From contig JASTWF010000088.1 in the NCBI GenBank assembly GCA_030390025.1, positions 248,001-312,000 on the forward strand: 64,000 nt of DNA, written 5' to 3'. The notes under the pieces are model-generated. The model was not told the DNA's origin and made no database searches. It saw only the letters and a program-made list of their open reading frames with translations. Below, one piece after another: positions 21,701 through 61,735 of this stretch. Position 1 is the first letter of the stretch, and each line of letters begins with the position of its first letter. The position numbers and the translations under genes are program-made. The stretch is from Squalus acanthias (taxonomy: Eukaryota).

Positions 21701-21760
21701 GGGGTGTGGTTTATGCGGTAGTTTACGGACCCCCCCTCTCTCTCTCTCTCTCTCTCTCAG

Positions 21761-27499: not shown

Positions 27500-27522
27500 A
27501 ACCTGGTGTTGTGCGACTTCTC

Positions 27523-31834: not shown

Positions 31835-31985
31835 CTATTTGCCCACTGAGGTTAATCGCAGGCTGGCCATGTGCAGCGTGATGATTCACGTTCAGTGTGT
31901 GCTGGGAGTGCAGAGATGACACGTTCCCTGGAGCTCTCCTGTCTGGGCCCTGTGCTTTCTAACCCGGGTAACCTTTGTGTTTCAG

Positions 31986-32011
31986 GTCTGATGGGTCCAG
32001 CCCTCAGTTAA
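31986..32011 (+). CDS. MHC class II beta exon 6 (C-terminus RLMGPALS*)
   Basis: TTTCAG|GT CTG ATG GGT CCA GCC CTC AGT TAA. Candidate ATTAAA poly(A) signal at 32689. Confidence 0.85.
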
Positions 32012-37293: not shown

Positions 37294-37625
37294 ACAGTAC
37301 CACACACCGGCAAGCCACGATTTCAAATCCTCTTTCTTTGGTATGGGGAAGTGAAAATGAGATAAAATAGGAACTTTGATCCGACACATGGGACTGTTCC
37401 AAACAATATTCCATTCATGTCCAAATAAGGAAGTGTTTGTGCTTGTCTGTGGTACAGTAAAAGATTCACTGTCAGCAAGAGAACTGGCCATATAACCACA
37501 GCTTCGATTTGGAAATGACACCATCCCACCTGTGAACAGTATCTGGGGCAACACTGTGCCAACTAACCAATAGGAGCCTTCCAATAGCAATTTCTCATCA
37601 GTTGCTAAGAGCCTGTCACATGCAG
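37294..37625 (-). promoter_or_regulatory. X-Y box module + Ets-IRF composite site + decayed leader exon (pseudogene 1)
   Basis: X1 CTTAGCAACTGATG (37609-37596), 21 nt, CCTATTGG (37574-37567). ATG at 37524. GGAAGTGAAA at 37347-37356. Paralogous to 61505-61735. Confidence 0.7.
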
Positions 37626-40600
37626 CCACTCAAACTGAAGCCTCAGTTGTTAGTGTATGGAAACGAATGCACCAGGGACACTGGATTCGAATAAGATGGC
37701 GAAGGGGCATCTCAGGCTGTGCCTTCCACGAATATCCTTCCATACCGAGGTGATGGTGGAACGACTGCTGCAAGACTCTGGCCTCAAATCACGCCCTTCA
37801 TATACCTGGTAGTTGGACACAGAAAGCAGAGGCTTCCTGCCACAGGAACATAGGAATTGCTGGATAAAAAAAGACCAGGGTCCATGGAGTTCGCCTTCGA
37901 CCATCCCGGTAGTCACATGACACAATGATGGAGCTGTTGACTAATCACAGCCGTCAATCTCAACAACAGACCCAGATACGAGGCGAGGAAACCCCCAGTG
38001 GTGGAGAGCTTTGGGAACCAGAGGTCCAAAGTCACCTGTTCCTCCCGAGCGCGCTCCACTCACCACACATCATGTCTCAAATTACTCATATTGTATCCCA
38101 AAATATTATTTTCCGAAAGAAATCTATTAATTTGTATTTGAATAAATCAATACTAACTGTTTCCACCATCTCCCTAAGGAGCCTTTTCCATAGATTGACC
38201 TCTCGCTCACTGAAATATTGTTTCCACAGATTAGTTTTGAATTTGCTCCTTCGAGTGCAGGCCTTGTCCTCTGATTCTACTGTTCTGGACAAGGTGAAAG
38301 AGCTTGTCACAGTCGACATTATCCCGTCCCTTTAGAATCCTAAAAACAGCAAACATATCACCCCTCAGCCTTCTCTTTTCCAGGAAGGACATGCCCAATT
38401 TACAAAATCACTGCTCATAATCCAATCCCTCCATCCCCTCACTCATTCTGGTCGCACTCTTCTGTATCCTTTCAATAGCTGCTATATCCTTTCTGTATTG
38501 TGATGACCAGAACTGTACACAGTATTCTATTGGAAGAAGCACTGAGAGTAGCAAGGGCACAGAATGTACTCTGGGTGGGGGACTTTAATGTCCATCACCA
38601 AGAGTGGCTCGGTAACACCACTGCCGACCGAGCTGGCCGAGTCCTGAAGGACATAGCTGCCAGTCTGGGCCTGCGACAGGTGGTGCGAGTACTAACACGA
38701 GAGAAAAACCTACTTGAACTCGTCCTCACCAATCTACCTGTTCCAGATGCATCTGTCCATGACAGTATTGGTAGCAATGACCACCCCACAGTCATTGTGG
38801 AGACAAAGTCCCATCTTCACACTGAGGACACCCTCCATCGTGTTGTGTGGCACTACCACCGTGCTAAATGAGATAGATTCAGAACAGATCTAGCAGCTCA
38901 AAACTGGGCATCCATGAGGCGCTGTGGGCCATCAGCAGCAGCAGAATTGTATTCCACCACAATCTGTAACCTCATGGCCAGGCATATCCCTCACTCTACC
39001 ATTATCATCAAGCCAGGGGACCAACCCTAGTTCCATAAGGAGTGTGGAAGAGCATGCCAGGAACAGCACCAGGCATACCTAAAAATGAGGTACCAACCTA
39101 GCACAAAGGAAGAGGCAACACAGGACGACATGCATGCTAAAAAGCAAAAGCAGCATGCTATAGATAGGGATAAGCAATCCCACAATCAACGGATCAGATC
39201 AAAGCTCTGCAGTCCTGCCACATCCAGTCGTGAATGGTGGTGGACCATTAAACAACTAACGGGAGGAGGAGGCTCCATGAATATCCCCATCCACAATGAT
39301 TGTGGAGCCCAGCACGTAAGTGCTGAGCGTTTGCAACCATCTTCAGCCAGAAGTGCCGAGTGGATAATCCATATCGACCTCCTCCTGAGGTTCCCACCAT
39401 CAAAGAAGCCAGTCTTCAGTCAATTCGATTCACTCCACATGATATCTAGAAATGGCTGAGCGCACTGAATACAGCAAAGGCTATGGGCCCCGACAACATC
39501 CGGGCTGTCATGCTGAAGACTTGTGCTCCAGAACTAGCCGTGCCTCTAGCCAAGCTGTTCCATTACAGCTACAACATTGGCACCTATCCGACAATGTGGA
39601 AAACTGCTCAGGTATGTCCTGTCCACAAAAGCAGGACAATTCCAATCCAGCCAATTACCGCCCCATCAGTCTACTCTCAATCATCAGCAAAGTGATGGAA
39701 GGTGTCATCGACAGTGCCATCAAGCAGCACTTACTCACCAATAACCTGCTCACTGATGCCCAGTTTGGGTTCCGCCAAGACCACTCAGCTCCCGACCTCA
39801 TTATAGCCTTGGTCCAAACATGGACAAAGGAGCTGAATTCCAGAGGTGAGCTGAAAGTAACTGCCCTTGACATCAAGGCAGCATTTGACCAAGGGTGGCA
39901 TCAAGGAGCCTTAGTAAAGCTGCAGTCAATGGGAATCAGGGGGGGAAAACTCTCCACTGGTTGGAGTCATACCTCACACAAAGGAAGATGGTTGTGGTGG
40001 TTGAAGGTCAATCATCACAGCCCTAGGACATCACTGCAGGAGTTCCTCAGGGCAGTGTCCTAGGCCCAACCATCTTCAGCTGCTTCATCAATGACCTTCC
40101 CTCCAGCATCAGGTCAGATATGGGGATGTTCGCTGATGACTGCACAGTGTTCAGTGCCATTCACAACTCCTCAGATAATGAAGCAGTCCATGCCCGCATG
40201 CAACAAGACCTGGACGATGTTCAGGCTTGGGCTGATAAATGGCAGGTAACATTCACACCACAGAAGTGCCAGGCAATGACTATCTCCAACAAGCGAGAGT
40301 CTAACTACCGCCCCTTGACATTCAATGGCATTACCATTGCCGAATCCCCCACCATCAATATCCTGGGGGGTCACCATTGACCAGAAACTTAACTGGACCA
40401 ACCACATAAATACTGTGGCGACAAAAGCAGGTCAGAGGCTAGGTATTCTGTGATGAGTGTCTCACCTCCTGACACCCCAAAGCCTTTCCACCATCTACAA
40501 GGCACAAATAAGGAGTGTGATGGAATACTCTCCACTTGCCTGGATGAGTGCAGCTCCAACAGCACACAAGAAGCTCAACACCATCCAGGACAAAGCAGCC

Positions 40601-41687
40601 CGCTTGATTGGCACCCTATCCACCACCTTAAACATTCACTCCCTCCACCACCACCAGCGTACCGTGGCTGCAGTGTGTACCATCTACAAGATGCACTGCA
40701 GCAACTCGCCAAGGCTTCTTCAGCAGCACCTCCCAAACCCGCGACCTCTTCCACCTAGAAGGACAAGGGCAGCAGGCGCATGGGAACACCACCATCTCCA
40801 AGTTCCCCTCCAAGTCACACACCCTCCTGACTTAGAAGTATATCGCCAATCCTTCATCATCGCTGGGTCAAAATCCTGGAACTCCCTACCTAACAGCACT
40901 GTGGGAGTACCTTCACCACATGGAATTCTTCTTCTTAGGCAGTCCCTCAGAACCGAGGATGACTTGCTTCCACACTAAAAATGAGTTCTCAGGTGACTGA
41001 TGAATCCAATGCGGGACCTACAGTCTCTGTCACAGGTGGGGCAGACGGTGGTTGAAGGGGCGGGTGGGTGGGGTGCTTGGGTTGACGTGCGCTCCTTGCG
41101 CTGCCTGCGCTTGGCTTCCGCTTGCTCCCGGCGAAGAGACTCGAGGTGTTCGGCGCCTTCCCGGATGCTTCTCCTCCACTTTGTGCGGTCTTGGGCCAGG
41201 GATTCCCAGGTGTCGGTGGGGATGTTGCACTTTTTCAAGGAGGCTTTGAGGGTGTCCTTGAAGTGTTTCCTCTGCCCAACTGGGGCTCTCTTGCTGTGTC
41301 GGAGCTCCAATTAGTGCGCTTGTTTTGGGAGTCGCATATCGGGCATGCGGACGATGTGGCCCGTCCATCGGAGCTGATCGAGCGTGGTCAAAGCTTCGAT
41401 GCTGGGGATGTTGGCCTAAGTGAGAACACTGACGTTGGTGCGCCTATCCTGCCAATGGATTTGCAGGATCGTGCGGAGTCAGCGTTGGTGGTACCTCTCC
41501 AGTGCTTTGCGGTGCCTGCTGTACATGGTCCATGTCTCTGAAGCATACAGCAGGGTGGGTATCACTACTGCTCTGTAGACCATGAGCTTGGTGCTGGGTT
41601 TGAGATCCTGGTCTTCAAACACTCTCTTCCTCAGGAGACCGAAGGCTGCACTGGCACACTGACGGCAGTGTTGGACTTAGTCATCGA

Positions 41688-44600
41688 AAGAGTTGGTGCA
41701 GGAGGGAGGGCATTAGTTCCCTGGATCACTGAGTCTGCTTCTGGGGAAGGTGGGATCTGTACAAGTCGGACGGGCTGCACCTAAACTGGAACGGGACCAA
41801 CATCCTTGCGGGGAGGTTTGCTAGTACTGTTGTGGGGGGCGGGGGGGTTTAAACTAACTTGGCAGGGGGATGGGATACGGAGTGGAGCTATAGTAGGGGG
41901 TGATGCACAGCCAAATATAGAGGAAAAAACAAGTCAGCCTGGAAGGCAGAGCAAATATGTAATGGCACAAGGGAGTATGGCAAGACTGGGTGGCATTTAT
42001 TTTAATGCAAGGAGTCTTGCGAGTAAGGCAGATGAATTGAAGGTGTTGATGAACACATGAGAGTATGATATTGTTGCTATCACAGAGACATGGTTGAGGG
42101 AGGGGCAGGACTGGCAGCTCAATATTCCGGGGTATAGAATCTTCAGGCGAGACAGAGGGAGGTGTAAAAGAGGAGGGGGTGTCGCAATATTAATCAAGGA
42201 GTTAATTACTGCTGTAAGGAGATTTGATATCTCAGCAGGTTCCTCTAATGAGGCCATATGGGTAGAACTTAAAAACAAAAAGGGGGCAAGCACTTTGCTG
42301 GGAGTGTACTATAGGCCCCCAAACAGTCAGGGGGAGATAGAGGAACAGATATGTAGGCAAATCTCAGAGAAGTGTAGAAATAATAGGATAATAATAGTAG
42401 GGGATTTCAACTTCCCCAATATTAACTGGGATAGTCAGAGTGTGAAAGGCTTAGAGGGTGCGGAATTCTTAAAGTGCATCCAGGAGAGCTTTTTGAGTCA
42501 GCATGTAGAAAGTCCTACAAGAGAGGGGGCGGTACTGGACCTAATTCTAGGGAATGTAGCTGGGCAAGTGGTAGAAGTGTCAGTAGGAGAGCATTTTGGT
42601 GACAGTGACCATAATTCGGTGAGATTTAAAGTAGTCATGGAAAAGGACAAAGGGCTGGACCGGAAATCAAGGTTCTAAATTGGGGAAGGCCGATTTTAAT
42701 ATGATAAGGCAGGATCTGGCCAAAGTGGATTGGGATAAACTACTTGTAGGAAAATCCACATCAGAGAAGTGGGAGCCTTTCAGAAAGGAAATAGAGAGAG
42801 TACAACGGCAACATGTTCCCGTAAAGGTCAAGGGTGGGACCAACAAGCCCAGGGAACCCTGGATGTCAAGGGATATACAAGAATGGATTCGGAAAAAAAG
42901 GGAGGCTTTTGGCAGATAAAAAGGACTAAAAACAGTGGAAGCTCTAGAGGAATATAGAAAGTGCAGGGGGGTGCTTAAAAAGGAAATTAGGAGAGCGAAG
43001 AGGGGACATGAAAAAACACTGGCGGGCAAAATAAAGGAAAATCCCAAGGTGTTTTATAAGTATATTAAGGGCAAGAGGATAACCAGGGAAAGAGTAGGGC
43101 CCATTAGGGACCAAAGTGGCAATCTGTGTGTAGAGCCGGAAGATGTGGGTGAAGTTTTAAATGAATATTTTGCATCTGTGTTCACTATGGAGAAGGACGA
43201 TGTAGGCATAGAAATCAGGCAGGGGGATTATGATATAGTTGAACAAATTAGTATTGAGTGGGAGGAGGTACTAGCGGTTTTAGCGGGCTTAAAAGTGGAT
43301 AAATCCCCAGGCCCAGATGAGATGTATCCCAGGCTGCTGTGTGAGGCAAGGGAGGAGATTGCAGGGGCTCTGGCACAAATTTTCAGAACTGCTCTGGCCA
43401 CAGGGGAGGTGCCAGAAGACTGGGGAAACATAGAAACATAGAATCTAGGAGCAGGAGTAGGCCATTCGGCCCGTCGAGCCTGCTCCACCATTCAATACGA
43501 TCATGGCTGATCATCCAAATCCAGTACCCTGTCCCTGCTTTAATCCCCACAGTACACATATCCCAACCTACCCCCGTAACCCCACGTATTTCATTCCCCC
43601 TAACATATCCCATCCTATCCCCATAACCCCACATATTTAATCCCCCCCTAACACTAAGGGTCAATTTATCATAGCCAAATCAACCTAACCCGCACATTTT
43701 TGGACTGTGGGAGGAAACCGGAGCACCCGGAGGAAACCCACGCAGACACGGGGAGAATGTGCAAACTCCACACAGACAGTCACCCGAGGTCAGATTCGAA
43801 CCCAGGTCCCTGGCGCTGTGAGGCTAACGTAGTACCATTATTCAAGAAGGGTAGTAGGGATAAACCAGGGAATTACAGGCCAGTGAGCCTAACATCAGTG
43901 GTCGGGAAATTATTGGAAAAAATTCTGAGGGACAGAATTAGTCTCCACTTGGAGAGGCAAGGATGAGTCAAGAATAGTCAGCATGGCTTTGTCAGGGGGA
44001 GATCATGTCTAACCAATTTGATTTAATTTTTCGAGGAGGTGACTAGGTGTGTGGATGAGGGTAGTGCAGTTGATGTAGTTGACATGGACTTCAGTAAGGC
44101 TTTTGACAAAGTCCCGCATGGGAGACTGGTCAAGTAGGTAAGAGCCCATGGGATTCAGGGCAATTTGGCACATTGGATCCAAAATTGGCTTAGTGGCAGG
44201 AGGCAGAGGGTGCTGGTTGAAGGTTGTTTTTGTGACTGGAAGCCTGTGTCCAGTGGTGTACCGCAGGGATCGGTGCTGGGTCCTTTGCTGTTTGTAGTGT
44301 ACATTAATGATTTAGATATGAATGTAGGAGGTATGATCAGTAAGTTTGCAGATGAAATGAAAATTGGTGGAGTGGTAAATAGCGAGGAGGGAAGCCTCAG
44401 GCTACAGGACAATATAGATGGGTTGGTTAGATGGGCAGAACAGTGGCAAATGGAATTTAACCCTGAAAAGTGTGAGCTGATGCATTTTGGGAGGACTAAC
44501 AAGGCAAGGGAATACACAATGAATGGTAGGACCCTAGGAAGGACAGAGGATCAGAGGGACCTTGCTGTGCATGTACATATATCCCTGAAGGCAGCAGAAC

Positions 44601-45262
44601 AGGTAGATAAGGTGGTTAAAAAGACATATGAGGTAATTGCCTTCATTAGCCGAGGCATAGAATATAAGAGCAGGGAGGTTATGGTGGAGCTGTACAAAAC
44701 GCCAGTTAGGCCACAGCTGGAATACTGTGTGCAGTTCTGGTCGCCACACTATAGGAAGGTTGTGATTGCATTGGAGAGGGTGCCGAGGAGATTCACCAGG
44801 ATGTTACCTGGGCTGGAGCATTTCAGCTATGAGGAGAGACTGGACAGGCTGAGGCTGTTTTCCTTAGAGCAGAGAAGGCTGAGGGGGGACCTGATTGAGG
44901 TGTACAAAATTATGAGGGGCATAGATAGGGTAGATAGAAAGAAACTTTTCCCCTTAGTAGAGGGGTCAATAACCAGGGGGCATAGTTTCAAGGTAAGGGG
45001 CAGGAGGTTTAGAGGGGATTTGAGGAAAAACTTTTTCACCCAGAGGGTGGTTGGAATCTGGAATTCACTGCCTGAAAGGGTGGTAGAGGCAGGAACCCTC
45101 ACAACATTCAAGAAGCATTTACATGAGCACTTGAAACGCCATAGCATACAAGGCTACGGACCAAGTGCTGGAAAATGGAATTAGAATAGAGAGGGCTTGA
45201 TGGCCGGCGCGGACACGATGGGCCGAAGGGCCTCTTTCTGTGCTGTATAAATCTATGACTCT
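41688..45262 (+). mobile_element. CR1 LINE nested in the RTE element
   Basis: FNARSL, YYRPP, GDFN, KSPGPD, GVPQGSVLGP; tail TCTATGACTCTATG. Confidence 0.88.
43426..43824 (-). mobile_element. HE1/V-SINE-type SINE nested in the CR1
   Basis: Near-identical to 35379-35809; interrupts the CR1 reading frame between EDW and ANVVPLFKKG. Confidence 0.8.
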
Positions 45263-46815
45263 ATGTCTGCCCTTGTTGACAGTAGGCTCCCGAGGTATGG
45301 AAAGTGGTCCACGTTGTCCAAGGCCTCGTTATGGATTTTGATAATCGGGGAGCTGTACTGTGTGGCAGGGGCAGGTTGGTAGAGGACCCTTGTCTTACGG
45401 ATGTTTAATGTAAGGCCCATGCTCTCGTACACTTCGGTGAAGGTGTTGACGATGGTTTGGAGTTCGGCCTCAGTGTGTGTGCAGACGCAAGCGTCGTCTG
45501 CATACTGTAATTCAATGACAGAGGATGGGATGACCTTGGATCTGGACTGGAGGCGACGGAGGTTGAACAGTTTCCCGTTTGTTCTGTAGATTAGCTCCAC
45601 TCCAGTGGGGAGCTTACTGAGGGTGAGATGGAGCATTGCAGCAAGGAAGATTGAGAAGAGCGTTGGTGCGATGACATAGCCTTGCTTGACCCCGGTCCGT
45701 ACGTGAATTGGTTCTGTGGTGGATCCATTGGTCAGGACGGTTCAAGAAGGCAACTCACCAACCCCTTCTCAAGGTCAATTAGGGATGGGACATAAATGCT
45801 GGCCTTGACAGCGATGCCCACATCCCATAAAAAAGGAATTAAAAAAACATTTTTAAAAGTGCTGCCGCACCAATGATTTATAACGTGGCAGGATTTCCTC
45901 ACTATTTCAGCACAGTAGCGACCTGTTAATACATCCCAACTTCTGATTTGCTTTCCTCACTGCCACTGAGCATTGTTGCGACAGTTTCAATTTATTGTCA
46001 GTCAGGACTCCCCAATCTCAGTCATTTTCCATGCACATTATTCTCTTTCCATTTAAGTAATTGTCTCTTCCTGGATTTTTTGTCCCCATGTGAAGCACTT
46101 TGCATTTCTCTACATTGAATTTCATCTGCCACCTGTCTGCCCAATTCCCAACTTTGTTCAATTGCTCCTGTAGCTTATCCTGTTCAGTTTTGGAGTCTAC
46201 CACCTTCATTAGCTTTGTATCACCTGCAGATTTAGCCACTGTACTCATGACTCCTATCTCCAGACCATTGATGAAGATATTAAAGAAAAGAGGTCCCAAA
46301 ACAGACCGCTGTGGGACCCCATTAGTAACATTCTCCCAGGCTGAGACAATTCCTGATTCACTATCCTCTCAGTTCAGTCAACCAATTATGTATCCATCAT
46401 AAAATATTTCCACTGATTCCCACTTTCTTTATTCTCAGTACCAGCCTCTCCAGAGGAATTGTATCGAAGGCCTTACTGAAATCCAAGTTCACCACATCCA
46501 CCCTTAAAGAAAACCAGTGAGTTAGATCGGCGAGACCCTGTTCAACCACTGTCCACAGATCTCCAGGAAAGAACACCTGCAGCACAGAGACTCCCCATAA
46601 TATATTAAACACTGTCAGCTGAAGGGAGGCAGCCTTTTCCGCATTCTCCATAGGTCTGTTAGCTTTCTCCCCAGTTTGGTGCAATGGAATCCTCCCAGGA
46701 ACATTCCCTATGGGTGAACTTTGAACCTGGCACAAGAAGGGGATCATCAGGGTTGACGCTCTCCTCACCAAAAGCCCGATCCCACCCTCCCTACACTGAG
46801 CTGACAAAGTCTCAC

Positions 46816-46934
46816 CCTCGCCCTACTGCTGTGTGAGCTCCAAGGTAATCCGGCCCCAAACAGTACCTCCAGCAGAACCCAGCAAACACATCTCCATCCT
46901 GAGCATCTCCATCTCAGAAAATGACACACAAAGC
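46816..46934 (-). pseudogene. Degenerate class II beta TM-like exon (pseudogene 2)
   Basis: SEMEMLRMEMCLLGSAGGTVWGRITLELTQQ*GE aligns ungapped, to the same phase-1 donor, with PESERTKIIIGSLGFGFGLIILLAGVIMRLKNAK. G|GTGAG donor. Confidence 0.45.
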
Positions 46935-47144
46935 CTGAAGGGGCCCTGGGAATGAGACCCAGAACAGAAAAGCAGAGAGGTGTGTAACAAAGTGTGCAAA
47001 GGCCAACTGAAGATCAGACACTTAATGTACCAGACCCCTCACAACCACCACAAATCCCAGCCAGACGGATGGTGTCCAAAGGAACCGTCTGTGACCAAAA
47101 GGTCACACAGTCCACGGCTTTGTACCATACGATTCCAACCTGTG

Positions 47145-47432
47145 ACCAGGTCACACTGGTCCATGGCTTTGTACTATGAAGTGTGTTAACAAAATGTGTA
47201 CAAGTTTCTGGACAAAAAGGGCAGAGGTGACGGCTTCATACTAAGTGGGCCCCATGCCAGGTTCTCGAGTGTGTCAGTGATCCCATATACAGCATTGAAA
47301 GCATCACGGGCAGGATCCTGCTCCTCATAGATCCTCCTGATTGTTATCACATACAAACACCATGTTATCTACAAAACAATGGCTTCAAACTGGGATTGAG
47401 AGAACTCTGATGCCAGACTGACTGTAACTGCC
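47145..47432 (-). pseudogene. Degenerate Ig-C1 (beta-2-like) exon (pseudogene 2)
   Basis: One frame gives QFEAIVL*ITW...TDTLENLAW...NLYTF. This matches the spacing of GFYPAKITVTW and NGDW-x17-Y-x-C; the F codon TTT is one change from TGT. Confidence 0.45.
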
Positions 47433-50400: not shown

Positions 50401-50820
50401 TTCCAGTTCAGGGTGAGAGCAGGAAACGGCAACAATACAGTGATCTATGTCCCAGAAAAAGAGGTGAGGGAGGGGACCTGAGTAGAACTGGAACAAAGAA
50501 TGTGCCATATATCCCACGAAAAGGCAGGCACAGCTAGGACCAATGTTCCCGTGTTGCTGCGCGGCCGCGATGTCGCCCAGCTGTTTGAAGCTCCCGCGCA
50601 GGCCACTTGCCGGTGTCTCAATGGAATAACCGCGCATGCGCGGAAGTTTGAATGGACCGGGCATCCCCTTAAAGGGGCTGCGTACCGTAAAAAAATTTTT
50701 TTTTACAGGATAATTGGCTAGGACCCATTCGGGTTCCCATAGGGGGAAGTGAGTGGAGTCAAAGGAGAAGATATTCAATGTGAGAACAAGTTCAGCCAGA
50801 AGGAGGAGGGTGGTGGTGGA
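47433..50820 (-). mobile_element. Penelope-like element fragments (47433-48385, about 50010-50820) split by a CR1 (about 48385-50010)
   Basis: GTFSCKRWRCNTC zinc motif, GIY-YIG remnants, degenerate hammerhead near 47505-47545; CR1 RT motifs in between. Confidence 0.75.
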
Positions 50821-51139
50821 AGGGGACTTTATTATTAAGTTGCTGGTATGTTTACACAGGATTGAGAAACACAGATCGTGCGAAGGCAGTTCAGCTTGGG
50901 CTCTATTGTGCAGGGAGGGGGAAGGGCTTGAGTGGAAAATCCCCGACTACAAACAGCAGATAAACAGATTTACCAATGTCTCAACTTGCATGGTGTAATT
51001 AATGTGCTAGTAAAATGAACACACTCCAGCCAATTAAATTGCACATCTGCAATGTGCCATCTGTTGCCAGGCAGGATGTGTTTTTAAGGTTTCATTTGGA
51101 TACAGAGGATTTCATTATCAACATATGGTCTGTAGAGAC

Positions 51140-52185
51140 TGTCCCTCAGCCCCAGGGTGGATATATCACCCTGTGTTTCCCTGACAGTGTTTCCCAGGGT
51201 GGATATATCACCCTGTGTTCCCCTGACAGTGTTCCCCAGGGCAGATATATCATCCGGTCTCCTCTGCATTGGGGAGACCAAATGCAGATTGGGTGACCGC
51301 TTAGCAGAACACCTCCGTTCAGTCCGTAAGGGTGACCCCGAGTGTCCGGTGGCCTGTCACTTTAATTCTCCACTCCACTCCCACTCTGGCCTCTCCATCC
51401 TCGGCCTCTTACACTGTTCCAATGAAGCTCAACGTAAGCTCGAGGAACAGCACCTCATCTTTCGCTTAGGCACTTTACAACCTTCTGGACTTAACATCGA
51501 GTTCAACAATTTCAAACCATAACCTCTGCCCCTATCTTCTTTTTTCATTTTTTTTCTCTCTCTCTCACATGGTATCTGTTGATCATTCTGCCATTGCCAT
51601 TTACACTTCATCTAGAGTCATCTTTTGTTTCTTAACTTGTCACATGACCATCTCCTTTTGCCTTGCACCATCATCCCTTTTGTCTATTAATCTCTCCTGC
51701 CTTCCATCCTATCACAGACCTTCCCTTTTGTTATTTCCTCCCCTCCCCCCTTTCTCTGCCCCTACACTTGCTTAAAAACCTGTTCCATCTCCAACTTTTT
51801 CCAGTTCTGACGAAGGGTCATCGACCTGAAATGTTAACTTTGTTTCTCTCTCCACAGATGCTGCCGGACCTGCTGAGTATTTGTAGCATTTTCTGTTTAT
51901 ATCACCCGGTGTTCCCCTGACAGTGTTCCCCAGGGCGGATATATCACCTTGTGTTCCTCTGATAGTGTTCCCCAGGGCAGCTATATCACCCTGTGTTCCT
52001 CTGATAGTGTTCCCCAGGGCGGATATATCACCCTGTGTTCCCCTGACAGTGTTCCCCAGGGCAGATATATCACCCTGTGTTCCCCTGAAAGTGTTCCACA
52101 GGGCGGATATATCACCCTGTGTTCCCCTGACAGTGTTCCCCAGGTTGGATATATCACCCTGTGTTCCTCTGAGAGTGTCTCCCAG
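51140..52185. repeat. 39-bp minisatellite (GGATATATCACCCTGTGTTCCCCTGACAGTGTTCCCCAG) interrupted by a Penelope 3' fragment
   Basis: Units at 51140-51250 and 51900-52185. Confidence 0.9.
51251..51900 (+). mobile_element. Penelope-like 3' fragment (GIY-YIG C-terminus + hammerhead-like motif)
   Basis: LCIGETKCRLGDRLAEH...GLNIEF; AGTT-CTGACGA-AGGGTC ATC GACCT-GAAA-TGTT-AACT at about 51803-51839. Confidence 0.82.
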
Positions 52186-55025
52186 CCCTGGGTATGTCCC
52201 ATCCCACCAGCAGGACAGACCCACCAGGGGTGGCCGCACAGTGGTATACAGTCGGGAGAGAGTGGCTTGGAGATTCCTCAGCATTGACTCCGGACCCCAT
52301 GAAGTCTCATGGCATCAGGTCAAACACGGGCAAGGAAATCTCCTGCTGATTACCACCTAGCTCACACTATTCCGCATTGAATTTAATCTGTCATGTATCC
52401 ACCCATTCCACCAGCCTGTCTATGTCCTCTTGAAGTCTATTACTATCTTCCTCACTGTTTACTACATTTCCTAGTTTCGTGTCATTTGCAAGTTTTGAAA
52501 TTGTGCCCTGTATCCCCAAGTCCAAGTCATAATCTATATCAAAAACAGCAGTGATCCTAGTACAAAACCCTGGGGAATACTACTGTATACCTCCCTCCAG
52601 TCTGAAAAACAGCCATTCACCACAACTCTGTTTTCTATCCCTTAGTCAATTTTGTATCCATGCTGCTACTGCTCCTTTTATCCCATGGACTGCAATTTTG
52701 CCAACAAACCTAATATGTGGTACTTTATCAAACTCCTTTTGAAAGTCCATGTACACTATATCAACTGCACTGCCCTCATCCACCCTCTCTGTTACCTCAT
52801 CAAGAAACTCAAACAACTTAGTCAAACATGATTTGCCCTAAAAAAAATCCGTGCTGGCTTTCTGTTATTGGTCCATACTTGTCCAAGTGGCTGTTAATTC
52901 TGTCTCAGATTATTGTTTCTAAAAGCTTCTCCACCACCAACGTTAAACTGATGGGCCCATAATTGCCAGATTTATCCTTCCCCCTTTTTTGAACAAGGGT
53001 GTAACTTTTGCAATCTTCCAGTCCTCTGGAAACACTTGACCTCATCCTCACCAATCTACCTGTTGCAGATGCATCTGTCCATGACTGTATTGGTAGGAGT
53101 GACCAAATTGGTGGAGACAAAATCCCGTCTTCAAGCTGAGCACACCCTCCAATGTGTGACATTACCACTGTGCTAAATGGGATACATTCAGAACAGATCT
53201 AGCAGCTCAAAACTGGGTATCCATGAGACGCTGTGGGCCATCATCAACAGCAGAATTATATTCCACCTCAATCTGTAACCTCATGGCCCGGCATATCCCT
53301 CACTCTACCATTACCATCAAGCCAGGCGACCAACCCTGGTTTAATGAGGAGTGTAGAAGAGCATGCCAGGAGCAGCACCAGGTGTACCTAAAAATGAGGT
53401 GCCAACCTGGCAAAGCTACAACACAGGACTACGTGCATGCTAAACAGCAGAAGCAGCATGCTATAGACAGAGCTAAGCAATCCCACAATCAACGGATCAG
53501 GTCAAAGCGCTGCAGTCCTGCCACATCCAGTCGTGAATGGTGGTGGACAATTAAACAACTAACTGGGGGAGGAGGCTGCATCTCAATTATGCTCAATCAT
53601 GGCAGAGCCCAGCACGTGAGTGCAAAAGACAAGGCTGAAGCGTTCACAACTATCTTCAGCCAGAAGTGTCGAGGAGCTGATACATCGCGGCTTCCTCCTG
53701 AGGACCCCACCATCACAGATGCCAGTCTTCAGCCAATTTGATTCACTCCACATGATATCAAGAAGCAGCTGAATGCACTGGATGCAGCAAAGGCTATGGG
53801 CCCTGAGAACATCCTGGATGTCGTGCTGCAGACTTGTGCTCCAGAACTAGCCATGTCTCTAGCCAAGCTGCTCCAGTATAGCTATAACACTGGCATCTAC
53901 CTGACAAAGTGAAAACTTTGGTCCTGGGAATCCTCAACATTGACTTCGGATTCCATGAAGTCTCATGGCTTCAGGTCAAACATGGGCAAAGAAACCTTCT
54001 GCTGATTACCACCTACCGCCCTCCCTCAGCTGATGAATCAGTACTCCTCCATATTGAAGACCCTTGGAAGAAGCACTGACGGTGGCAAAGGCACAGAACG
54101 TACTCTGAGTGGAGGACTTCAATGTCCATCACCAAGAGTGGCTCGGTAGCACCACTACTGACTGAGCTGGCCGAGTCCTGAAGGACATAGCTGCCAGACT
54201 GGGCCTGCGGAGGGTGGTGAGAGAACTAACACGAGGGAAAAACCTACTTGACCTTGGCCTCCCCGATCTACCTGTCACAGATGCATCTGTCCATGACAGT
54301 ATTGGTAGGAGTGATCACCGCACAGTCCTTGTAGAGACTAAGTCCTGTCTTCACACTGAGGACACCCTTCATCGTGTTGTGTGGCACTACCACTGTGCTA
54401 AATGGGATAGATTCAGAACAGATCTAGCAGCTCAAAACTGGGCATCCATGAGACACTGTGGGCCATCAGCAGCAGCAGAATTGTTTTTCACCACAATCTG
54501 TAACCTCATGGCCCAGCATATCCCTCACTCTACCATTACCATCAAGCCAGGTTACCAACCCTGGTTCAATGAGGAGTGTAGAAGAGCATGCTGGGAGCAG
54601 CACTAGGCGTACCTAAAAATGAAGTGGCAAACTGATGAAGCAACATCACAGGACTACATACATGCTAAACAGGGGAACCATCATGCTATAGACAGAGATA
54701 AGCGGTCCCACAACCAATGGATCAGATCAAAGCTCTGCCTGACCTAGTGTCTGTCCTTCTTAAATAAACCCCGTATCAGCAGCTCCTCTGACAGTGTCCC
54801 CAGTCCAAGTTTATTTATTTAACCCTAGGCTCCCCTGACAATGTCTCCCAGTACAAGGTTGTTTATCTAACCCTGGGCTCCCCTGACGTGTTAGTTCAGT
54901 CACCTTGCATATTTAGTGGATCAGCGATGTTACTGTCCGATCCCAATCACAGTGGGTAATGACCGATGGAAAGTGAACTGGAGCCATTCTGAAGCAGGAT
55001 GTCCTGTGCAGTCATTCTCCATCAC

Positions 55026-55252
55026 CTGGTCGGACGTTGTTTAGACTTTGTGTTTTTGTGCGTGTGATTGGCAGTGTGAGAGGCAGTAATGATAAATTAC
55101 ACCACGCACCCTCTGACAGCTTGATGCTGCCCTGTCTCAACAATCCAGGGGTCACGTCCAACACAAAGCTTCCCTTCCATTCACAGCGGACAGATAACAG
55201 CGTCTGTGGTTAGTAATGTAACCAACACAGGCCTGAACTCGTGTCTGCCCTT
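55026..55252 (-). pseudogene. Degenerate class II peptide-binding-domain-like exon (pseudogene 2)
   Basis: TTTAAG acceptor and CCAG|GT donor, both phase 1. (E)GQTRVQAC...YLSAVNGREA[fs]VLD...AWCN...C..RP. Confidence 0.45.
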
Positions 55253-56294
55253 CTTAAACAAACCCCATATCAGCAGCTGTGTGATGGAAGTTGTGTGAAG
55301 CCGGTGTTATTATATCTACAGCAGGCTGAAGGTCCTTGTATAAAGAATGGCTTCCTGGTGTCCAGCCTTTGATAGTGTTAGCTGGACTTTCCTTTTTCCA
55401 ATTGGAGTTGATGGGAATGTTAGGGTTGAAATTAGGAACACAGTAACAAGAGGAGGCCATTCAGCCCCTCGAGCCTAATCCGCCATTCCATTAGATTATG
55501 GCTGATCTGTATCTTAACTCCATCTACCCGCCTTGGTTCCGTAACCCTTAATACCCTTGCCTAACAATAAATCTACCAATCTCAGTTTTGAGATTTTCCA
55601 AACTCAACAGTTTTTTGGGGCAGAGAGTTCCAGATTTCCACTACCTTTTGTGTGAAGAAGTGCTTTCTGACATCACCCCTGAACTAATTGTAAGGCTATG
55701 TCCCCTTGTTCTGGACTCCCCCACCAGAGGAAATAGTTTCTCTCTATCCACACTATCTACTCCTTTAAACATCTTAAACACCTCAATTAGATCACCCCTT
55801 CATCTTTTATATTCAAGGGAATGCAAGCCTATGTCTGTGCAACCTGACTTATAATTTAACCCTTTTAGCCCCGGTATCATTCTGGTGAATCTGTGCTGCA
55901 GTGGAGAAGTGGGCAAGGGGGAATGAGGGATGGGTATAGGGACAGCAGAAGGGAGGGTGATGGGGTGGGCAGAAGAAAGGCAGGGGGGCAAACTGTTCCA
56001 TCCTCAACATCTTCGTCTTCTAGCATCCGCAGTATTTTGCTATTGTATTAGCGTTCCATCCTCACACCTGGACTTTCTTTTAAATCAGGGGAGGGGTTAT
56101 GAGCTAAAAGGCCCATGGCTCTTCCTTTGCACAGAGGAGGTGAGGGGTGGTCTTCCCTCATTCAGGGCCCAATTACCTACTCATTGTGCGGGAGGGAGCT
56201 ACTGTCCCACAGGCCTCCACTGTGCACTCAGTGCAGGGGAGGACCTAGTATTCTCCTCTTGTTAGGCACCCTATCCAATGACTTGAAAGGTAAC

Positions 56295-56673
56295 AGGTGT
56301 GGTGCAGTTGTAGCGCTCTCACCTCTGAGTCAGAAGGTTGTGGATTCAAGTTCAACTCCAGTGACTTGAGCACAAAATCTAGGCTGGCACTCCAGTGCAG
56401 TCCTGAGGGAGAGCTGCACTGTCAGAGGTGCTGCCAGATGAGACGTAAAAACAGCTGAATGTAAATGATCCCATGGCGTTATTTGAAGTAGAGCAGGGAA
56501 GTGCTCACCGGTGTCCTGGACAATATTTATCGCTCAACCAATATCACTAAAACAGATTATCTGGTCATTATCTCATTGCTGTTTGTGGAACCTTGCTGTA
56601 CGTAAATTGGCCGCTGCATTCACCTACACTTCAAAAGTAATCCTGAGGTGAAAGGTGCCATATAGCTACAAGT
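56295..56673 (+). mobile_element. DeuSINE (SacSINE1-like)
   Basis: tRNA-like head, TTGAGCACAAAATCTAGGCTG...GATCCCATGGC...CAGATTATCTGGTCATT central domain; fragment also at about 18800-18893. Confidence 0.7.
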
Positions 56674-58958
56674 AGCCAAGTTGTTCCAGTGCAGCTATGA
56701 CACTGGCAGCTACCCGACAATGTGGAAGATTGCCCAGGTATATCCTATCCACAAAAGAACAGGCTAAATCTAACCCGCCATACATCCTAATGGTACATGA
56801 GCAATGCCGTGAAGCGATAGCTGAAGCAAATAGGGTGTTAGGGTGTATCCACAGGACAATTGAAATGAGGCATACTACTTTGTCCTTGTACAGGACCTTG
56901 GTCAGGCCGCACTTGGATTACTGTGCCCAGTTTTGATCTCCTCACATGATGGGGCTTTGGAGAGGGTACAGAGGAGGGCCACTAGACTAATTCCTAGTTT
57001 AAAGCATCTTAATTATCAAGATAGACTAAAAGACTTTAGAGAAGCGTAGACTTAGAGGTGATCAGATTCTGGTTTATAAGATGATGAATGGAATAGATTG
57101 TGTTCCAGTTGACAGTTTGTTTCAATTAAGTAGGTTAGGCAGGACCAGGGGTCACAAATTTAAGTTGTATAAGGCCAGATCTAGGTTAGATGTCAGGAGG
57201 TGGTTCTTTTCCCAGAGAATAGTGGACCTCTGGAACAGGCTGCTGTCCCGTGCAGTGAACGCTGATTCGCTGAATTCCTTCTGGCTGGGGTGGAGATCAC
57301 CTCTTACAGAATGTAGGTACTGCAGGGAATTCATGGCCAGGGTGATCTCCTGGACTAGTTTCAATTGCCTAGATTGGTCAGAGAGGAATTTCCCAGCCAT
57401 TTTTCCACAAATTGGCCTCGATTTTTTATCATTTTTTTTGCTAGGAGTTCACATGGTTTCAGGTAGGGTGCAGTGTATATATTGTGATACACAAGGTGTC
57501 ACAATTGTGTGGGCCAGGCTCGATGGGCCAGAGAGTATTTACCTGTCCATCATTGTTTGTATGTTCATATATTTGGTCAATTACCACCTATCAGCCTCCT
57601 CCTGGTCATCAGTAAAGTGATGGAATCATCAGCAATGACATTGAGTGATCCTCAGTCTCCAACACTCGGTTCGAGTTCCACCAGAACTTGGCTCCAGACC
57701 TCATCATAGCCTTGATCCAGACATGGGCACATGAGCTGAATGCCAGAGGAGGGGAGGTGAGATTAGCTGCCTTCAACATCAAGGCAGAATTTGACAAAGG
57801 AGCCCAGGCAAAACTGAACTCAATGTGGGTAAAAGAGAAACCCCTCCAGTGGCTGGAGTCATGCCTGATGGGAAAGAAGATGGTTGTGGTTGTCGGAGGC
57901 CAATCATTGCAGCCTCAGGACATCATTGCAGAAGTAGCTCAGGGAAGTGCCCTTGCCCAATTATCTTGTTACTTCATCAATGACTTTTGCTCCAGGATGT
58001 TCACTGACAATTGATTCCACAGTGTTGAGCTCCATTCAAACTCCTCCAATAATGGATAACTCACCACTTACCTGGCTGTTACAGCCACAACATCATTCAA
58101 GATGCTCAACACCATCCAGAGCATCAGTGCCTCTGTAGCTGGACTTAATATCGACTCCCTCTACCACCAGCGCACCCATGGCTGGAGTATGTATGATCTA
58201 CAGGATGCACTCTAGCAACTCACCAAGGTTACTTCACCAAGCTCCACTTTTCTCCCCATGAACCTCGACAATCAGCAAGGAAAAGAACATCAATGTTGTG
58301 GTACCCTCCAAGTCACACACCATCCTGACTTGGACAAATATCGGCAATTCCTTCATCGTGGCTGGGTCAATATCCTGGAACATCCTAGTGACCAGCACTG
58401 TGGGAGCACCGTCACCAGACCGACTGCAGCGATTCAAGGAGAAGGCTCACCACCACCTTCTCAACGCAGCTAGTGATAGATAATCAATCTGTTCATGGCA
58501 GCATTACCCAGAAAACAAAAAAGTTCATTCTCATTCTGTTGGTGTCCTTTCCTGAAATTTCATATTTCTGTCCTGATCATCACTAATTCTACGTGTGGGA
58601 CCCTCTTTAGGGTGGTGCTGGGGGGTGGGGGGGGGGGGGGGGGTAATGTTCCAAAAACTTTACATTTCCGAAGGTCTTTACAAGAACAATCAATAACATG
58701 CCGCCCACTCCTCGTGGACTCCTCGTGTGCCTTTACCACCAGCAATGTGTGAGCTCACATTAATTAGCATTCATTAGCACATATGTAAATGTAAAGTGTT
58801 ATGTTCAGTGACAACATTGGAGAAATGACAGCAACTTCTGACTGAGGATCTCTTTCCCCACTAATGTTAATTGAAGTCACTGTATATTCAACAATGGAGC
58901 CCAACAGCAAATTTACTGCCTCAGTCTGGAATAAATGGTTAGCATCTAGAAGATCAAT

Positions 58959-61448
58959 CCTGATATTGGTGCTGTATATAGTAACCCCTGCCCCGTGATT
59001 GTTCCCCATCCCGTTTCTCTATTTCCCCCTTCAGTGCTCCCTGATATTCGTGCTGTATATAGTAACCCCTGCCCTGTGATTGCTCCCCATCCTGTATCTC
59101 TATTTCCCCCTTCAGTACTCCCTGATCTTCAAGCTGTATGTAGTAAACCCTGCCCCGTGATTGCTCCCCATCCTGTATCTCTATTTCCCCCTTCAGTACT
59201 CCCTGATATTGGTGCTGTATATAGTAACCCCTGCCCTGTGATTGCTCCCCATCCTGTATCTCTATTTCCCCATTCAGTACTCCCTGATATTGGTGCTGTA
59301 TATAGTAACCCCTGCCCCGTGATTGCTCCTGATCCTGTATCTCTATTTCCACCTTCAGTACTCTCTGATATTGGTGCTGTATAGAATAACCCCTGCCCCG
59401 TGATTGTTCCCCATCCTGTATCTCTATTTCCCCCTTCAGTACTCCCTGATAATGGTGCTGTAAATAGTAACCCCTGCCCTGTGATTGCTCCCTATCCCGT
59501 TTCTCCATTTCCCCCTTCAGTACTCCCTGATATTGATGCTGTATATAGTAACCCCTGCCCCGTGATTGTTCCCCATTCTGTATCTCTATTTCCCCCTTCA
59601 GTACTCCCTGATATTGGTGCTGTATATAGCAACCCCTGCCCCATGATTGTTCCCCATTCTGTATCTCTATTTACCCCTTCAGTACTCCCTGATATTGGTG
59701 CTGTATATAGTAACCCCTGCCCCGTGATTGTTCCCCATCCTGTTTCTCTATTTCCCCCTTCAGAACTCTCAGATATTGGTGCTGTAAATAGTAACCCCTG
59801 CTCCGTGATTGTTCCCCATCCTTTATCTCTATTTCCCCCTACAGTGCTCTCTGATATTGGTGCTGTATATAGTAACCCCTGCCCTGTGATTGCTCCCCAT
59901 CCTGTATCTCTATTTCCCCCTTCAGTACTCTCGGATATTGGTGCTGTATATAGTAACCCCTGCCCCGTGATTGTTCCCCATTCTGTATCTCTATTTCCCC
60001 TTCAGTACTCTGATATTGGTGCTGTATATAGTAACACCTGCCCTGTGATTGCTCCCCATCCTGTATCTCTATTTCCCCCTTCAGTACTCTCTGATATTGG
60101 TGCTGTATATAGTAACCCCTGCCCTGTGATTGCTCCCCATCCTGTATCTCTATTTCCCCCTTCAGTGCTCTCTGATATTGGTGCTGTATATAGTAACCCC
60201 TGCCCTGTGATTGCTCCCCATCCTGTATCTCTATTTCCCCCTTCAGTGCTCTCTGATATTGGTGCTGTATATAGTAACCCCTGCCCCGTGATTGTTCCCC
60301 ATCCCGTTTCTCTATTTCCCCCTTCAGTACTCCCTGATATTGGTGCTGTAAATAGTAACCCCTGCCCTGTGATTGCTCCCCATCCCATTTCTCTATTTCC
60401 CCCTTCAGTACTCCCTGATATTGGTGCTGTAAATAGTAAACCCTGCCCTGTGATTGTTCCCCATTCTGTATCTCTATTTCCCCCTTCAGCACTCCCTGAT
60501 ATTGGTGCTGTATATAGTAACCCCTGCCCCATGATTGTTCCCCATCCTGTATCTCTATTTCCCCCTTCTGTACTCCAAGATATTGGTGCTGTATATAGTA
60601 ACCCCTGCCCCGTGATTGTTCCCCATTCTGTATCTCTATTTCCCCCTTTAGTACTCCAAGATATTGGTGCTGTATATAGTAACCCCTGCCCCGTGATTGC
60701 TCCCCATCCCGTTTCTCTATTTCACCCTTCAGTGCTCTCTGATATTGGTGCTGTATATAGTAACCACTGCCCCGTGATTTTTCCCCATCCTGTATCTCTA
60801 TTTCCCTCTTCAGTACTCCCTGATATTGTTGCTGTATATAGTAACCCCTTCCCTGTGATTGCTCCCCATTCTGTATCTCTATTTCCCCCTTCAGTACTCC
60901 AAGATATTGGTGCTGTATATAGTAACCCCTGCCCAGTGATTGCTCCCCATCCCGTTTCTCTATTTCCCCCTTCAGTGCTCTCTGATATTGGTGCTGTATA
61001 TAGTAACCCCTGCCCCGTGATTGTTCCCCATTCTGTATCTCTATTTCCCCCTTCAGTACTCCAAGATATTGGTGCTGTATATAGTAACCCCTGCCCCGTG
61101 ACTGCTCCCCATCATGTATCTCTATTTCCCCCTTCAGTACTCCCAGATATTGGTGCTGTAAATAGTAACCCCTGCCCTGTGATTGCTCCCCATCCTGTAT
61201 CTCTATTTCCCCCTTCAGTGCTCTCTGATATTGGTGCTGTATATAGTAACCCCTGCCCCGTGATTGTTCCCCATCCTGTATCTCTATTTCCCCCTTCAGT
61301 ACTCCCTGATATTGGTGCTGTATATAGTAACCCCTTCCCTGTGATTGTTCCCCATCCTGTATCTCTATTTCCCCCTTCAGTACTCTCTGATATTGGTGCT
61401 GTATAGAGTAACTCCCGCCCTGTGATTGCTCCCCATCCAGTTTCTCTA
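58959..61448. repeat. 81-bp tandem satellite, about 30 copies
   Basis: Unit CCTGATATTGGTGCTGTATATAGTAACCCCTGCCC.GTGATTG.TCCCCATCC.GT.TCTCTATTTCCCCCTTCAGT.CTC. Confidence 0.97.
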
Positions 61449-61504
61449 TGTCCGCTGCGTAGCTCTATGGTCACACACTGAGCCCAATGTCCTACCTACT
61501 GATG

Positions 61505-61735
61505 ACAGTACCACACAGTGGCAGACAAACAGCTCTCAGCGTAATTTCTTGCTGTGGGGAAGTGAAACAGGAAGTGCTTTGGTTTGACTCAACCTTGTTC
61601 CAAAGAATATTCCCAAATAAGGATGTCTTGTGCGTACCTGGGTTTAGAGTGAGACCATGGTGGTTTACACCGCTAGCCAATAGGATCTGTAGAGCGCCAG
61701 TCTGTCATCTGTTGCTGAGAGAGGCTCTCTCATGG
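61505..61735 (-). promoter_or_regulatory. X-Y box module + Ets-IRF, ETS and AP-1 sites + leader remnant (pseudogene 2)
   Basis: X1 CTCAGCAACAGATG (61719-61706), 21 nt, CCTATTGG (61684-61677). ATG at 61658 and CAG|GTACGC donor. GGAAGTGAAA 61558-61567, CAGGAAGTG 61568-61576, TGACTCA 61585-61591. Confidence 0.72.

What the first reader, a model, noticed from the sequence alone, without database searches (positions are those of the whole stretch)
37294..61735. Two paralogous non-coding modules keep X box, 21-nt spacer, Y box and Ets-IRF site although their exons have decayed
Seen: 37294-37625 and 61505-61735 share colinear blocks (ACAGTACCACACA; TGGGGAAGTGAAA; TGTTCCAAA.AATATTCC; CCAAATAAGGA.GT; CCAATAGG; CATC.GTTGCT.AGAG). 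The X1 boxes CTTAGCAACTGATG and CTCAGCAACAGATG are closer to the HLA-DR X1 consensus than those of the intact gene, while the spacer sequence has diverged at constant length. Established: mammalian class II loci use distal X-Y modules and PU.1/IRF sites as long-range enhancers. Inference: dead promoters retained as enhancers, a possible origin for such locus-control elements.
Basis: partly seen in the sequence, partly recalled or inferred. Interest (0 to 1): 0.72.

Follow-up and report, generated by a model that had tools for sequence, protein, structure and literature searches.

The report
Shark MHC class II distal enhancers
Downstream of a shark immune gene (MHC class II beta) lie two old duplicated switches, plus a third related one, built from the same DNA motifs that turn these genes on in mammals; they are probably long-range enhancers, but the idea that they are promoters of dead genes is not shown.

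Summary
Modules A (37294-37611) and B (61505-61721) are real paralogs: alignment score 101 against 26±4, 0 of 1000 shuffles. They share six blocks, including X1, a 21-nt spacer, Y and an exact Ets-IRF site. All three are inverted and lie 5-30 kb 3' of a cartilaginous-fish class II beta gene. Module A is covered by one contig in each of three related organisms, so it is not a high-copy repeat at 80% likeness or more. It shows 0 substitutions in 78 motif positions against 20 in 240 others. One test went the other way: run-length clustering of the A-B alignment is not above neutral. No beta or Ig-C1 exon remnant was found, and A and B do not resemble the gene's own promoter. 'Decayed exons' therefore rests only on a post hoc leader-like stretch in A; alpha-chain leaders could not be tested. 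Best reading: distal RFX/NF-Y/CIITA enhancers with RUNX and Ets-IRF inputs, like mammalian distal S'-Y' elements (about 0.55). Activity is untested.

The parts
37294..37611 (-). Module A: X1-Y pair (X to Y on the minus strand) followed by Ets, unknown block, EICE and RUNX-like blocks; candidate distal enhancer
37596..37609 (-). A: X1 box (RFX site), 12/14 to the DRA-type 14-mer; unchanged in the listed differences of 3 organisms
37567..37574 (-). A: Y box (ATTGG, NF-Y), 24 nt after X1; a second CCAAT lies inside the spacer at 37581-37585
37446..37524 (-). A: possible leader-exon-like remnant (ATG at 37524, out-of-frame hydrophobic run, no intact donor). Post hoc lead only
   Evidence: no match to an elasmobranch beta-leader profile
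37421..37435 (+). A: CCAAATAAGGAAGTG, read as an Ets (PU.1/Spi-type) site; the overlapping CArG-like box is broken by a 1-nt deletion in organism A while AGGAAGTG stays
   Evidence: motif names recalled
37395..37412 (+). A: conserved block TGTTCCAAAxAATATTCC, factor unknown; its one variable position in orthologs (37404) is the position that differs between A and B
37347..37356 (+). A: Ets-IRF composite element GGAAGTGAAA (fits GGAAnnGAAA)
   Evidence: consensus from PMC4334403 passage
37299..37304 (-). A: RUNX-like TGTGGT inside the 13/13 block, 37 nt from the EICE block in both copies
   Evidence: RUNX consensus recalled
61505..61721 (-). Module B: paralog of A. RUNX-like 61510-515, EICE 61558-567, extra Ets site AGGAAGTG 61569-576, block 61596-613, Ets/CArG-like 61613-626, Y 61677-684, X1 61706-719
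51030..51071 (-).
50743..50943 (.). Sites next to module C: NF-kB-like 10-mer at 50934-50943 (minus) and PU-box GGGGAAGTG at 50743-50751; neither motif is enriched in the window as a whole
   Evidence: consensus recalled
11986..12666 (+). Promoter of the beta gene: X-Y at 12006-12047 (11/14, 23 nt), second X-Y at 12135-12175 (10/14, 22 nt), 12 ATTGG boxes including a 25-bp array, TATTTAAA at 12602
12667..32010 (+). MHC class II beta gene, exons 12667-12769, 21761-22024, 23771-24051, 30041-30157, 30978-31007, 31986-about 32010; 1-nt frameshift near 23917-23921 in this assembly. Nearest candidate target

Best explanation
A and B are two copies of an old enhancer cassette, and C is a third, separately diverged X-Y element. 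Together they form a cluster of inverted distal enhancers 5, 19 and 30 kb 3' of a shark class II beta gene. SHOWN: the motifs, their geometry, the paralogy, single copy at 80% likeness or more, and motif-biased conservation. INFERRED: RFX binds X1 and NF-Y binds Y at a fixed helical phase, making a CIITA docking platform. The neighbouring RUNX-like, Ets and Ets-IRF sites bind RUNX and PU.1/Spi-IRF4/8, opening the element in B cells and dendritic cells or macrophages. The element then loops to class II promoters in the region (this beta gene, its alpha partner outside the window, or both). The cassette was duplicated long before the sampled species split: the two ungapped spacers differ at 53% (about 0.9 substitutions per site) while orthologs differ at 2.4-5.5%.
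For: X-Y pairs far above chance. Both exact GGAAGTGAAA sites in the window are in A and B. In the two ungapped A-B segments, motif positions are 33 of 35 identical against 42 of 73 others (Fisher p=4e-5); X1+CCAAT alone 17 of 19 against 14 of 26 (p=0.011). Two spacers keep their length exactly while their letters diverge. Orthologs of A (differences of runs X1 and X10 pooled): 0 of 78 motif positions substituted against 20 of 240 others (p=0.003; circular-shift p=0.003); with indels 1 of 78 (p=0.018); consensus-defined sites only 0 of 46 against 20 of 272 (p=0.04; shift p=0.07). One contig per run over the module, depth 4-20, beside repeats at depth 10^3-10^5. No exon remnants and no A-B homology outside the modules. 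Mammalian precedent: distal S'-Y' and XL elements bind RFX and CIITA and act as enhancers (PMC7866136, PMC2677874 passages), and an S-Y module was tested in both orientations (PMC1802633 passages).
Against: No binding, chromatin or reporter data. Run-length clustering of the A-B alignment is not above uniform neutral decay at matched identity (5 runs of 8 or more against 3.8±1.5; 187 of 600). The module as a whole is no better conserved than its flanks (organism B: 18/318 against 3/82 and 12/219). The ortholog test is partly circular, because motifs were defined on the window's own letters; it falls to p=0.06-0.14 when wildcard positions and indels are counted; and 53 difference rows were not shown. 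No clear S box or X2/CRE in A or B, although mammalian S-Y modules are strictly four-part (PMC1802633 passage). The X1-ATTGG gap is 24 nt in A and B against 23 in C and in the first promoter module. Only module A was checked across species. A leader-like stretch in A hints at a promoter origin. The nearest gene has a frameshift in this assembly, so the target is uncertain.
Confidence: 0.55

Rival explanations
1. One reading: A and B (perhaps C) are the promoter, leader exon and start of intron 1 of lost minus-strand genes, most likely class II alpha copies. Their downstream exons were erased and their binding sites were kept as enhancers. This differs from the best explanation in origin, not in present function.
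For: An ATG lies 47, 23 and 43 nt after ATTGG in A, B and C, and is homologous in A and B. One frame off from A's ATG there is a hydrophobic run (15-residue mean 2.49, reached by 10 of 562 same-size segments; the real leader scores 2.17). B's spacing after the ATG is 1 nt shorter, which is the offset that would put that run in frame. B has a donor-like CAG|GTACGC where A has CAG|ACAAGC. A has two CCAAT boxes, and organisms B and C show a third (37629 C>A). Elasmobranch class II regions hold one to four copies each of alpha and beta genes (PMC10751288 passage).
Against: The implied exon would end in phase 0 or 2, while the real leader exon ends in phase 1. Y-to-ATG is 23-47 nt against 89 nt with a TATA box in the real promoter. 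No match to elasmobranch beta leader, beta1, beta2 or TM profiles. 148 of 150 C1-domain proteins hit only the real exon 3. No Ig or MHC Pfam hit in 150 of 198 minus-strand and 76 of 180 plus-strand frames. No A-B homology beyond the modules. All signs were picked after the fact.
Confidence: 0.25
2. The modules are live CIITA-driven promoters of unannotated minus-strand transcripts (non-coding RNA, or the first exon of a gene whose other exons are not recognisable).
For: All three face the same way. An S-Y nucleosome-free region can set a start site without core-promoter sequence (PMC2677874 passage). B has a Kozak-type ATG and a donor-like site.
Against: No coding exon or Rfam family nearby. 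The ATG frames are short or non-homologous. The donor-like site is absent in A.
Confidence: 0.1
3. Neutral relics: an old low-copy repeat or duplicated scrap in which the blocks survive by chance.
For: Run-length test not significant. The module overall is no more conserved than its flanks. Copies under 80% likeness cannot be counted without a genome.
Against: Single copy at 80% or more in three organisms. Conserved positions coincide with independently known class II and lymphoid motifs beside a class II gene. Three separate X-Y pairs where 0.04 are expected.
Confidence: 0.1

Closest known systems
Distal S'-Y' enhancers of the human class II locus and invariant chain (HLA-DRA S'-Y' at -2.3 kb; Ii S'-Y' and Y''-S''; Krawczyk 2004 as cited in PMC1802633, PMC2677874, PMC7866136; passages read, the 2004 paper itself not seen)
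   Same: X1-Y pair with class II spacing, far from a start site, several per locus.
   Different: Here in a cartilaginous fish and 3' of a beta gene; no recognisable S or X2 in A and B; embedded in a duplicated 220-320 bp cassette with RUNX-like, EICE and Ets sites; binding and activity untested.
XL9 and DR/DQ super-enhancers between HLA-DRB1 and DQA1 (PMC4811771, PMC7041702; passages read)
   Same: Intergenic elements of a class II region that combine X-Y/CIITA sites with IRF4 motifs.
   Different: XL9 is CTCF-centred (CTCF not tested here). No rigid EICE-RUNX-X-Y cassette appears in the passages read, and neither paper mentions PU.1. No sequence homology is claimed.
Ets-IRF composite element, GGAAnnGAAA, bound by PU.1/Spi-B with IRF (PMC4334403, passages read)
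   Same: Exact match in both modules, unchanged in the listed ortholog differences.
   Different: Occupancy not shown; the generic 10-mer is not enriched window-wide (4 against 3.1 expected).
Proximal S-X-X2-Y promoter module of class II genes (PMC2278383, PMC1351924; passages read)
   Same: X1 and Y sequence, order and spacing.
   Different: No gene follows; no shared TATA; no alignment to this beta gene's own promoter beyond X-Y.

Membership tests
MHC class II S-X-X2-Y (S-Y) module | X1 box (RFX site) | tested here: met
   12/14 (A), 12/14 (B), 13/14 (C) to the 14-mer seen in a probe in PMC4806502; its attribution to HLA-DRA is recalled
MHC class II S-X-X2-Y (S-Y) module | Y box (ATTGG) 3' of X1, same orientation, fixed spacing | tested here: met
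   24, 24 and 23 nt; 23 and 22 nt in the gene's own promoter. The HLA-DRA value of 23 is recalled
MHC class II S-X-X2-Y (S-Y) module | X2 (CRE-like) box overlapping the 3' end of X1 | tested here: inconclusive
   By eye: B has only a TGAC half-site, A and C none; the second promoter module has TGACG. Consensus recalled
MHC class II S-X-X2-Y (S-Y) module | S/W box at fixed distance 5' of X | tested here: inconclusive
   B and C share a GAAA(A)C-pyrimidine stretch ending 14 nt before X1; A has none. No shark S consensus available; mammalian consensus recalled
MHC class II S-X-X2-Y (S-Y) module | Binds RFX and NF-Y and recruits CIITA in vivo | not testable with these tools
   needs ChIP or footprinting
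Distal S'-Y'/XL enhancer | Lies away from any class II start site, within the class II region | tested here: met
   5-30 kb 3' of the beta gene, no class II exons found in 32-64 kb; sequence beyond 64 kb unseen, 2.3 kb past module B
Distal S'-Y'/XL enhancer | RFX/CIITA-dependent enhancer activity and looping to class II promoters | not testable with these tools
   needs reporter assay and chromatin contact data
Class II pseudogene promoter (orphan promoter) | Recognisable remnants of downstream class II exons | tested here: not met
   sensitivity for a beta exon 3 was 12/12 at 10% and 20% decay, 6/12 at 30%, 1/12 at 40%
Class II pseudogene promoter (orphan promoter) | Leader exon with phase-1 donor after the Y box | tested here: inconclusive
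   Leader-like run and donor-like site, but out of frame and phase 0 or 2; no beta-leader match
Class II pseudogene promoter (orphan promoter) | Homology to the 5' region of an intact paralog | tested here: inconclusive
   Not met for the beta gene; no alpha gene in the window and no alpha protein retrieved
High-copy dispersed repeat | Many genomic copies | tested here: not met
   One contig per run over 37218-37591 in runs X1, X10, X13 at 80% likeness; copies under 80%, such as B itself, are not counted

The most novel reading that the evidence does not exclude
A and B are fossil 5' ends (promoter, leader exon, start of intron 1) of lost shark class II alpha genes whose X-Y and intronic Ets/IRF/RUNX sites were kept as long-range enhancers. 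Gene birth-and-death in the MHC would then have seeded its locus-control elements, caught here in the oldest lineage with an MHC.
Probability: 0.25. Interest if true: 0.72.

Novelty: new variant of a known kind. Interest (0 to 1): 0.47.

Why it matters
If these are enhancers, then long-range control of class II genes by several distal RFX/NF-Y/CIITA platforms, joined to lymphoid and myeloid Ets-IRF and RUNX inputs, is not a mammalian add-on. It also exists in cartilaginous fish, the earliest-branching living lineage with an MHC. My searches found no paper on shark class II X-Y elements: (MHC class II, shark, X box, Y box, promoter) gave 0; (shark, class II, X-box, distal, enhancer, CIITA) gave 0; one search gave 1 review; one search gave 14 papers (13 listed), none about sharks by title. 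The library lacks most subscription journals. Three short elements with exact coordinates make the question directly testable, and an alignment with an intact shark alpha gene would settle whether such enhancers come from dead genes.

Tried and rejected
No whole genome is held, so there was no genome-wide copy count or view beyond the window. No RNA holder listed among the runs, and the guessed-RNA run X6 had no cover over module A: no evidence either way on transcription. Pattern scan of metagenome contigs: 0 matches. Earlier-findings look-ups by sequence and nearby place: nothing. Rfam: 0 matches in the window. Atlas search with the 79-residue frame over module A: no usable hit. Attempts to fetch shark class II alpha proteins for a leader comparison failed: only beta chains, class I-like and other C1 proteins came back, and the alignment FASTA supplements of PMC8010645 cannot be read here; they bear on the leader-remnant question. 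Exon 2 alone missed Pfam MHC_II_beta and gave only weak PDB hits, mostly DR beta (best E 0.14); identity as class II beta rests. CArG/SRF reading of CCAAATAAGG set aside: broken in organism A while the overlapping Ets core stays. A and B as copies of the beta promoter rejected. Hits outside known exons (best E 2e-4 at 3956-4048, filter off) lie in a GC-rich retroelement frame and were treated as compositional; the best in 32-64 kb was E 0.031. The run-length test gave a null result and is counted against the best explanation.
Full report
SETTING. The window holds one MHC class II beta gene on the plus strand, with exons at 12667-12769, 21761-22024, 23771-24051, 30041-30157, 30978-31007 and 31986 to about 32010, with canonical splice sites. 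Elasmobranch class II beta proteins align to the leader, beta1, beta2 and transmembrane exons. The closest is a zebra shark beta chain, P0202, at 79% over exon 3 against at most 66% for the other 58 of 59 proteins tried. This suggests the rarer of the two shark lineages described in PMC8010645 (passages and figure-legend section read; the lineage name DAB is my inference). Exon 3 has 281 nt, so the gene carries a 1-nt frameshift in this assembly; I could not test whether it is real. The promoter has two X-Y pairs (12006-12047 and 12135-12175), twelve ATTGG boxes and a TATA-like box at 12602. Most of 32-64 kb is retroelement debris and an 81-bp tandem array.

OBSERVATION. The local alignment scores 101 against 26.1±4.2 for shuffles (0 of 1000), and no other tile of the window exceeds 45.5. 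On the minus strand each module reads X1, 21 nt, Y, then an Ets-type site, an 18-nt block of unknown factor, an Ets-IRF element and a RUNX-like site. Two spacers keep their exact length while diverging: X-Y, 21 nt, 9 identical; RUNX-EICE, 37 nt, 18 identical. The claim that A and B are closer to the consensus than the gene's boxes is true by one base (12 against 11). The 14-mer was seen in a probe list in PMC4806502 (one passage); that it is the HLA-DRA X1 box is recalled, and the held text of PMC2191754 did not show it.

IS IT A REPEAT? No genome is held. Laying contigs of four coded runs on 37150-38150 at 80% likeness showed one contig over module A in each of the three runs with cover: organism A 12 differences in 501, organism B 41 in 768, organism C 35 in 632. 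Depth there was 4-20, while neighbouring repeats reached 10^3-10^5. The fourth run, a guessed RNA run, had no cover there. A is therefore single-copy at that likeness and present in three related organisms. Older copies, such as B itself, are below the threshold.

IS IT CONSTRAINED? For: pooling the listed differences of runs X1 and X10, 0 of 78 reader-specified motif positions are substituted against 20 of 240 other module positions (Fisher p=0.003, circular-shift p=0.003); 1 of 78 with indels (p=0.018); consensus-defined sites 0 of 46 against 20 of 272 (p=0.04). The one variable position in the 18-nt block is the one that differs between A and B. In the two ungapped A-B segments, motif positions are 33 of 35 identical against 42 of 73 (p=4e-5), and X1 plus CCAAT alone 17 of 19 against 14 of 26 (p=0.011). 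Against: long perfect runs in the A-B alignment are no more frequent than under uniform decay to the same identity (187 of 600). The module as a whole is no better kept than its flanks (18/318 against 3/82 and 12/219). With wildcards and indels counted, p rises to 0.06-0.14. Motifs were defined on the window's own letters, which biases the test. All 12 differences of the X1 contig over the module were listed, but only 33 of 41 for X10 and 29 of 35 for X13; X13 was left out of the count, and I infer, but did not see, that the missing X10 rows lie in the repeat-overlapping ends. Net: moderate evidence of motif-level purifying selection.

ARE THERE DECAYED EXONS? None was found. The gene's own exons and 59 class II-related proteins hit nothing in 32-64 kb better than E 0.03. 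Profiles from 23 elasmobranch beta chains (leader, beta1, beta2, TM) find only the real exons. 148 of 150 C1-domain proteins hit exon 3 and no other MHC-like place. Pfam gave no Ig or MHC family in the 150 longest of 198 minus-strand frames or in 76 of 180 plus-strand frames in non-repeated sequence. A-B similarity stops at the module edges, and neither module aligns to the beta promoter beyond X-Y. Limits: simulated decay of exon 3 was detected 12 of 12 times at 10% and at 20% substitution, 6 of 12 at 30% and 1 of 12 at 40%, and the spacers imply about 0.9 substitutions per site between A and B, so old exons could be invisible. No alpha chain could be fetched.

A and B share an ATG after the Y box (37524 and 61658). 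A has a hydrophobic run one frame off (10 of 562 comparable segments reach it). B's spacing after the ATG is one base shorter, and B has a donor-like site where A has a degenerate one. But the phase would be 0 or 2 rather than the phase 1 of the real leader exon, the Y-to-ATG distance is half or less of that in the real promoter, and all of this was picked after the fact.

MECHANISM. Most likely (0.55) these are distal enhancers. RFX on X1 and NF-Y on Y form a CIITA platform, as at mammalian promoters and distal S'-Y' elements (PMC7041702, PMC2677874, PMC7866136, PMC1802633, PMC2278383; passages read). The adjoining Ets-IRF (consensus from a PMC4334403 passage), Ets and RUNX-like sites would give B-cell and myeloid specificity. 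The platform would act by looping on the beta gene, on an alpha partner outside the window, or on both; elasmobranch class II regions hold alpha and beta genes linked to beta-2-microglobulin (PMC10751288, passages read). Motifs, geometry, copy number and conservation are shown; binding, activity and target are inferred. Rivals: the same function but descended from dead gene 5' ends (0.25), live promoters of unannotated transcripts (0.1), neutral relics (0.1).

COMPARISON AND NOVELTY. It works like the distal S'-Y'/XL enhancers of the human class II locus. X1, Y, spacing and distal position are met; S and X2 are inconclusive; activity is untestable here. Membership as a pseudogene promoter fails on exon remnants and is inconclusive on the leader. 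IRF4 sites in the human XL9 element are documented (PMC4811771, passages read), but PU.1 is not mentioned there or in PMC7041702. Searches found no description of shark class II X-Y elements in the held library, which lacks most subscription journals. PMC9992475, PMC1351924 and PMC8010645 were read as passages only; other papers were seen only as search listings; Krawczyk 2004 and Gomez 2005 were seen only as citations. Earlier scan notes added an analogous duplicated NF-Y/RFX cassette in a human promoter (e1-626174, unchecked) and agreed that this is a shark-like genome (e1-7940627).

VERDICT. A real, non-repetitive, probably constrained cluster of X-Y elements in a shark class II region: a new variant of a known kind, interest 0.47. 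The bolder claim of origin from dead genes is open at about 0.25 and can be decided by one alignment against an intact shark alpha gene.

Noticed in passing
window 23917-23921 (exon 3 of the class II beta gene): Exon 3 is 281 nt, one base short; the frame shifts in mid beta2 domain while all other exons and splice sites look intact. Assembly error or a recent null allele.
   Followed up: partly
window 11986-12666: The beta promoter is unusual: two X-Y pairs 530-660 nt upstream of the ATG, separated from the TATA box by a short interspersed repeat (12268-12422) and a 25-bp tandem array in which each unit carries a CCAAT box (12 ATTGG in all).
   Followed up: partly
window 12783-14437 and 18918-21511: Intron 1 of the beta gene starts with a 37-bp G-rich array (45 copies) and ends with a roughly 31-bp G-rich array with N gaps, directly against exons 1 and 2.
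   Followed up: no
window 58959-61453: An 81-bp tandem array (31 copies, about 91% alike, one long open frame on the plus strand) ends about 50 bp from module B.
   Followed up: no
window 37626-37630: Organisms B and C have a further CCAAT box here (37629 C>A), about 16 nt 5' of X1 in module A where an S box would be expected; the window and organism A lack it.
   Followed up: no
window 50545-50700: GC- and CpG-richer stretch next to module C with a palindromic GCGCATGCGC (NRF1-like, recalled) and CGGAAGT; it may be a common non-autonomous repeat rather than part of the element.
   Followed up: no
window 1458-7573 and about 24900-27500: A retroelement on the minus strand with a 1306-codon open endonuclease-reverse transcriptase frame and an upstream ORF, and a near-identical truncated copy inside intron 3 of the beta gene, so recently active.
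   Followed up: no
window 35379-35778 and 43425-43824: Two 400-bp interspersed repeat copies 98.75% identical, inserted into older LINE fragments.
   Followed up: no
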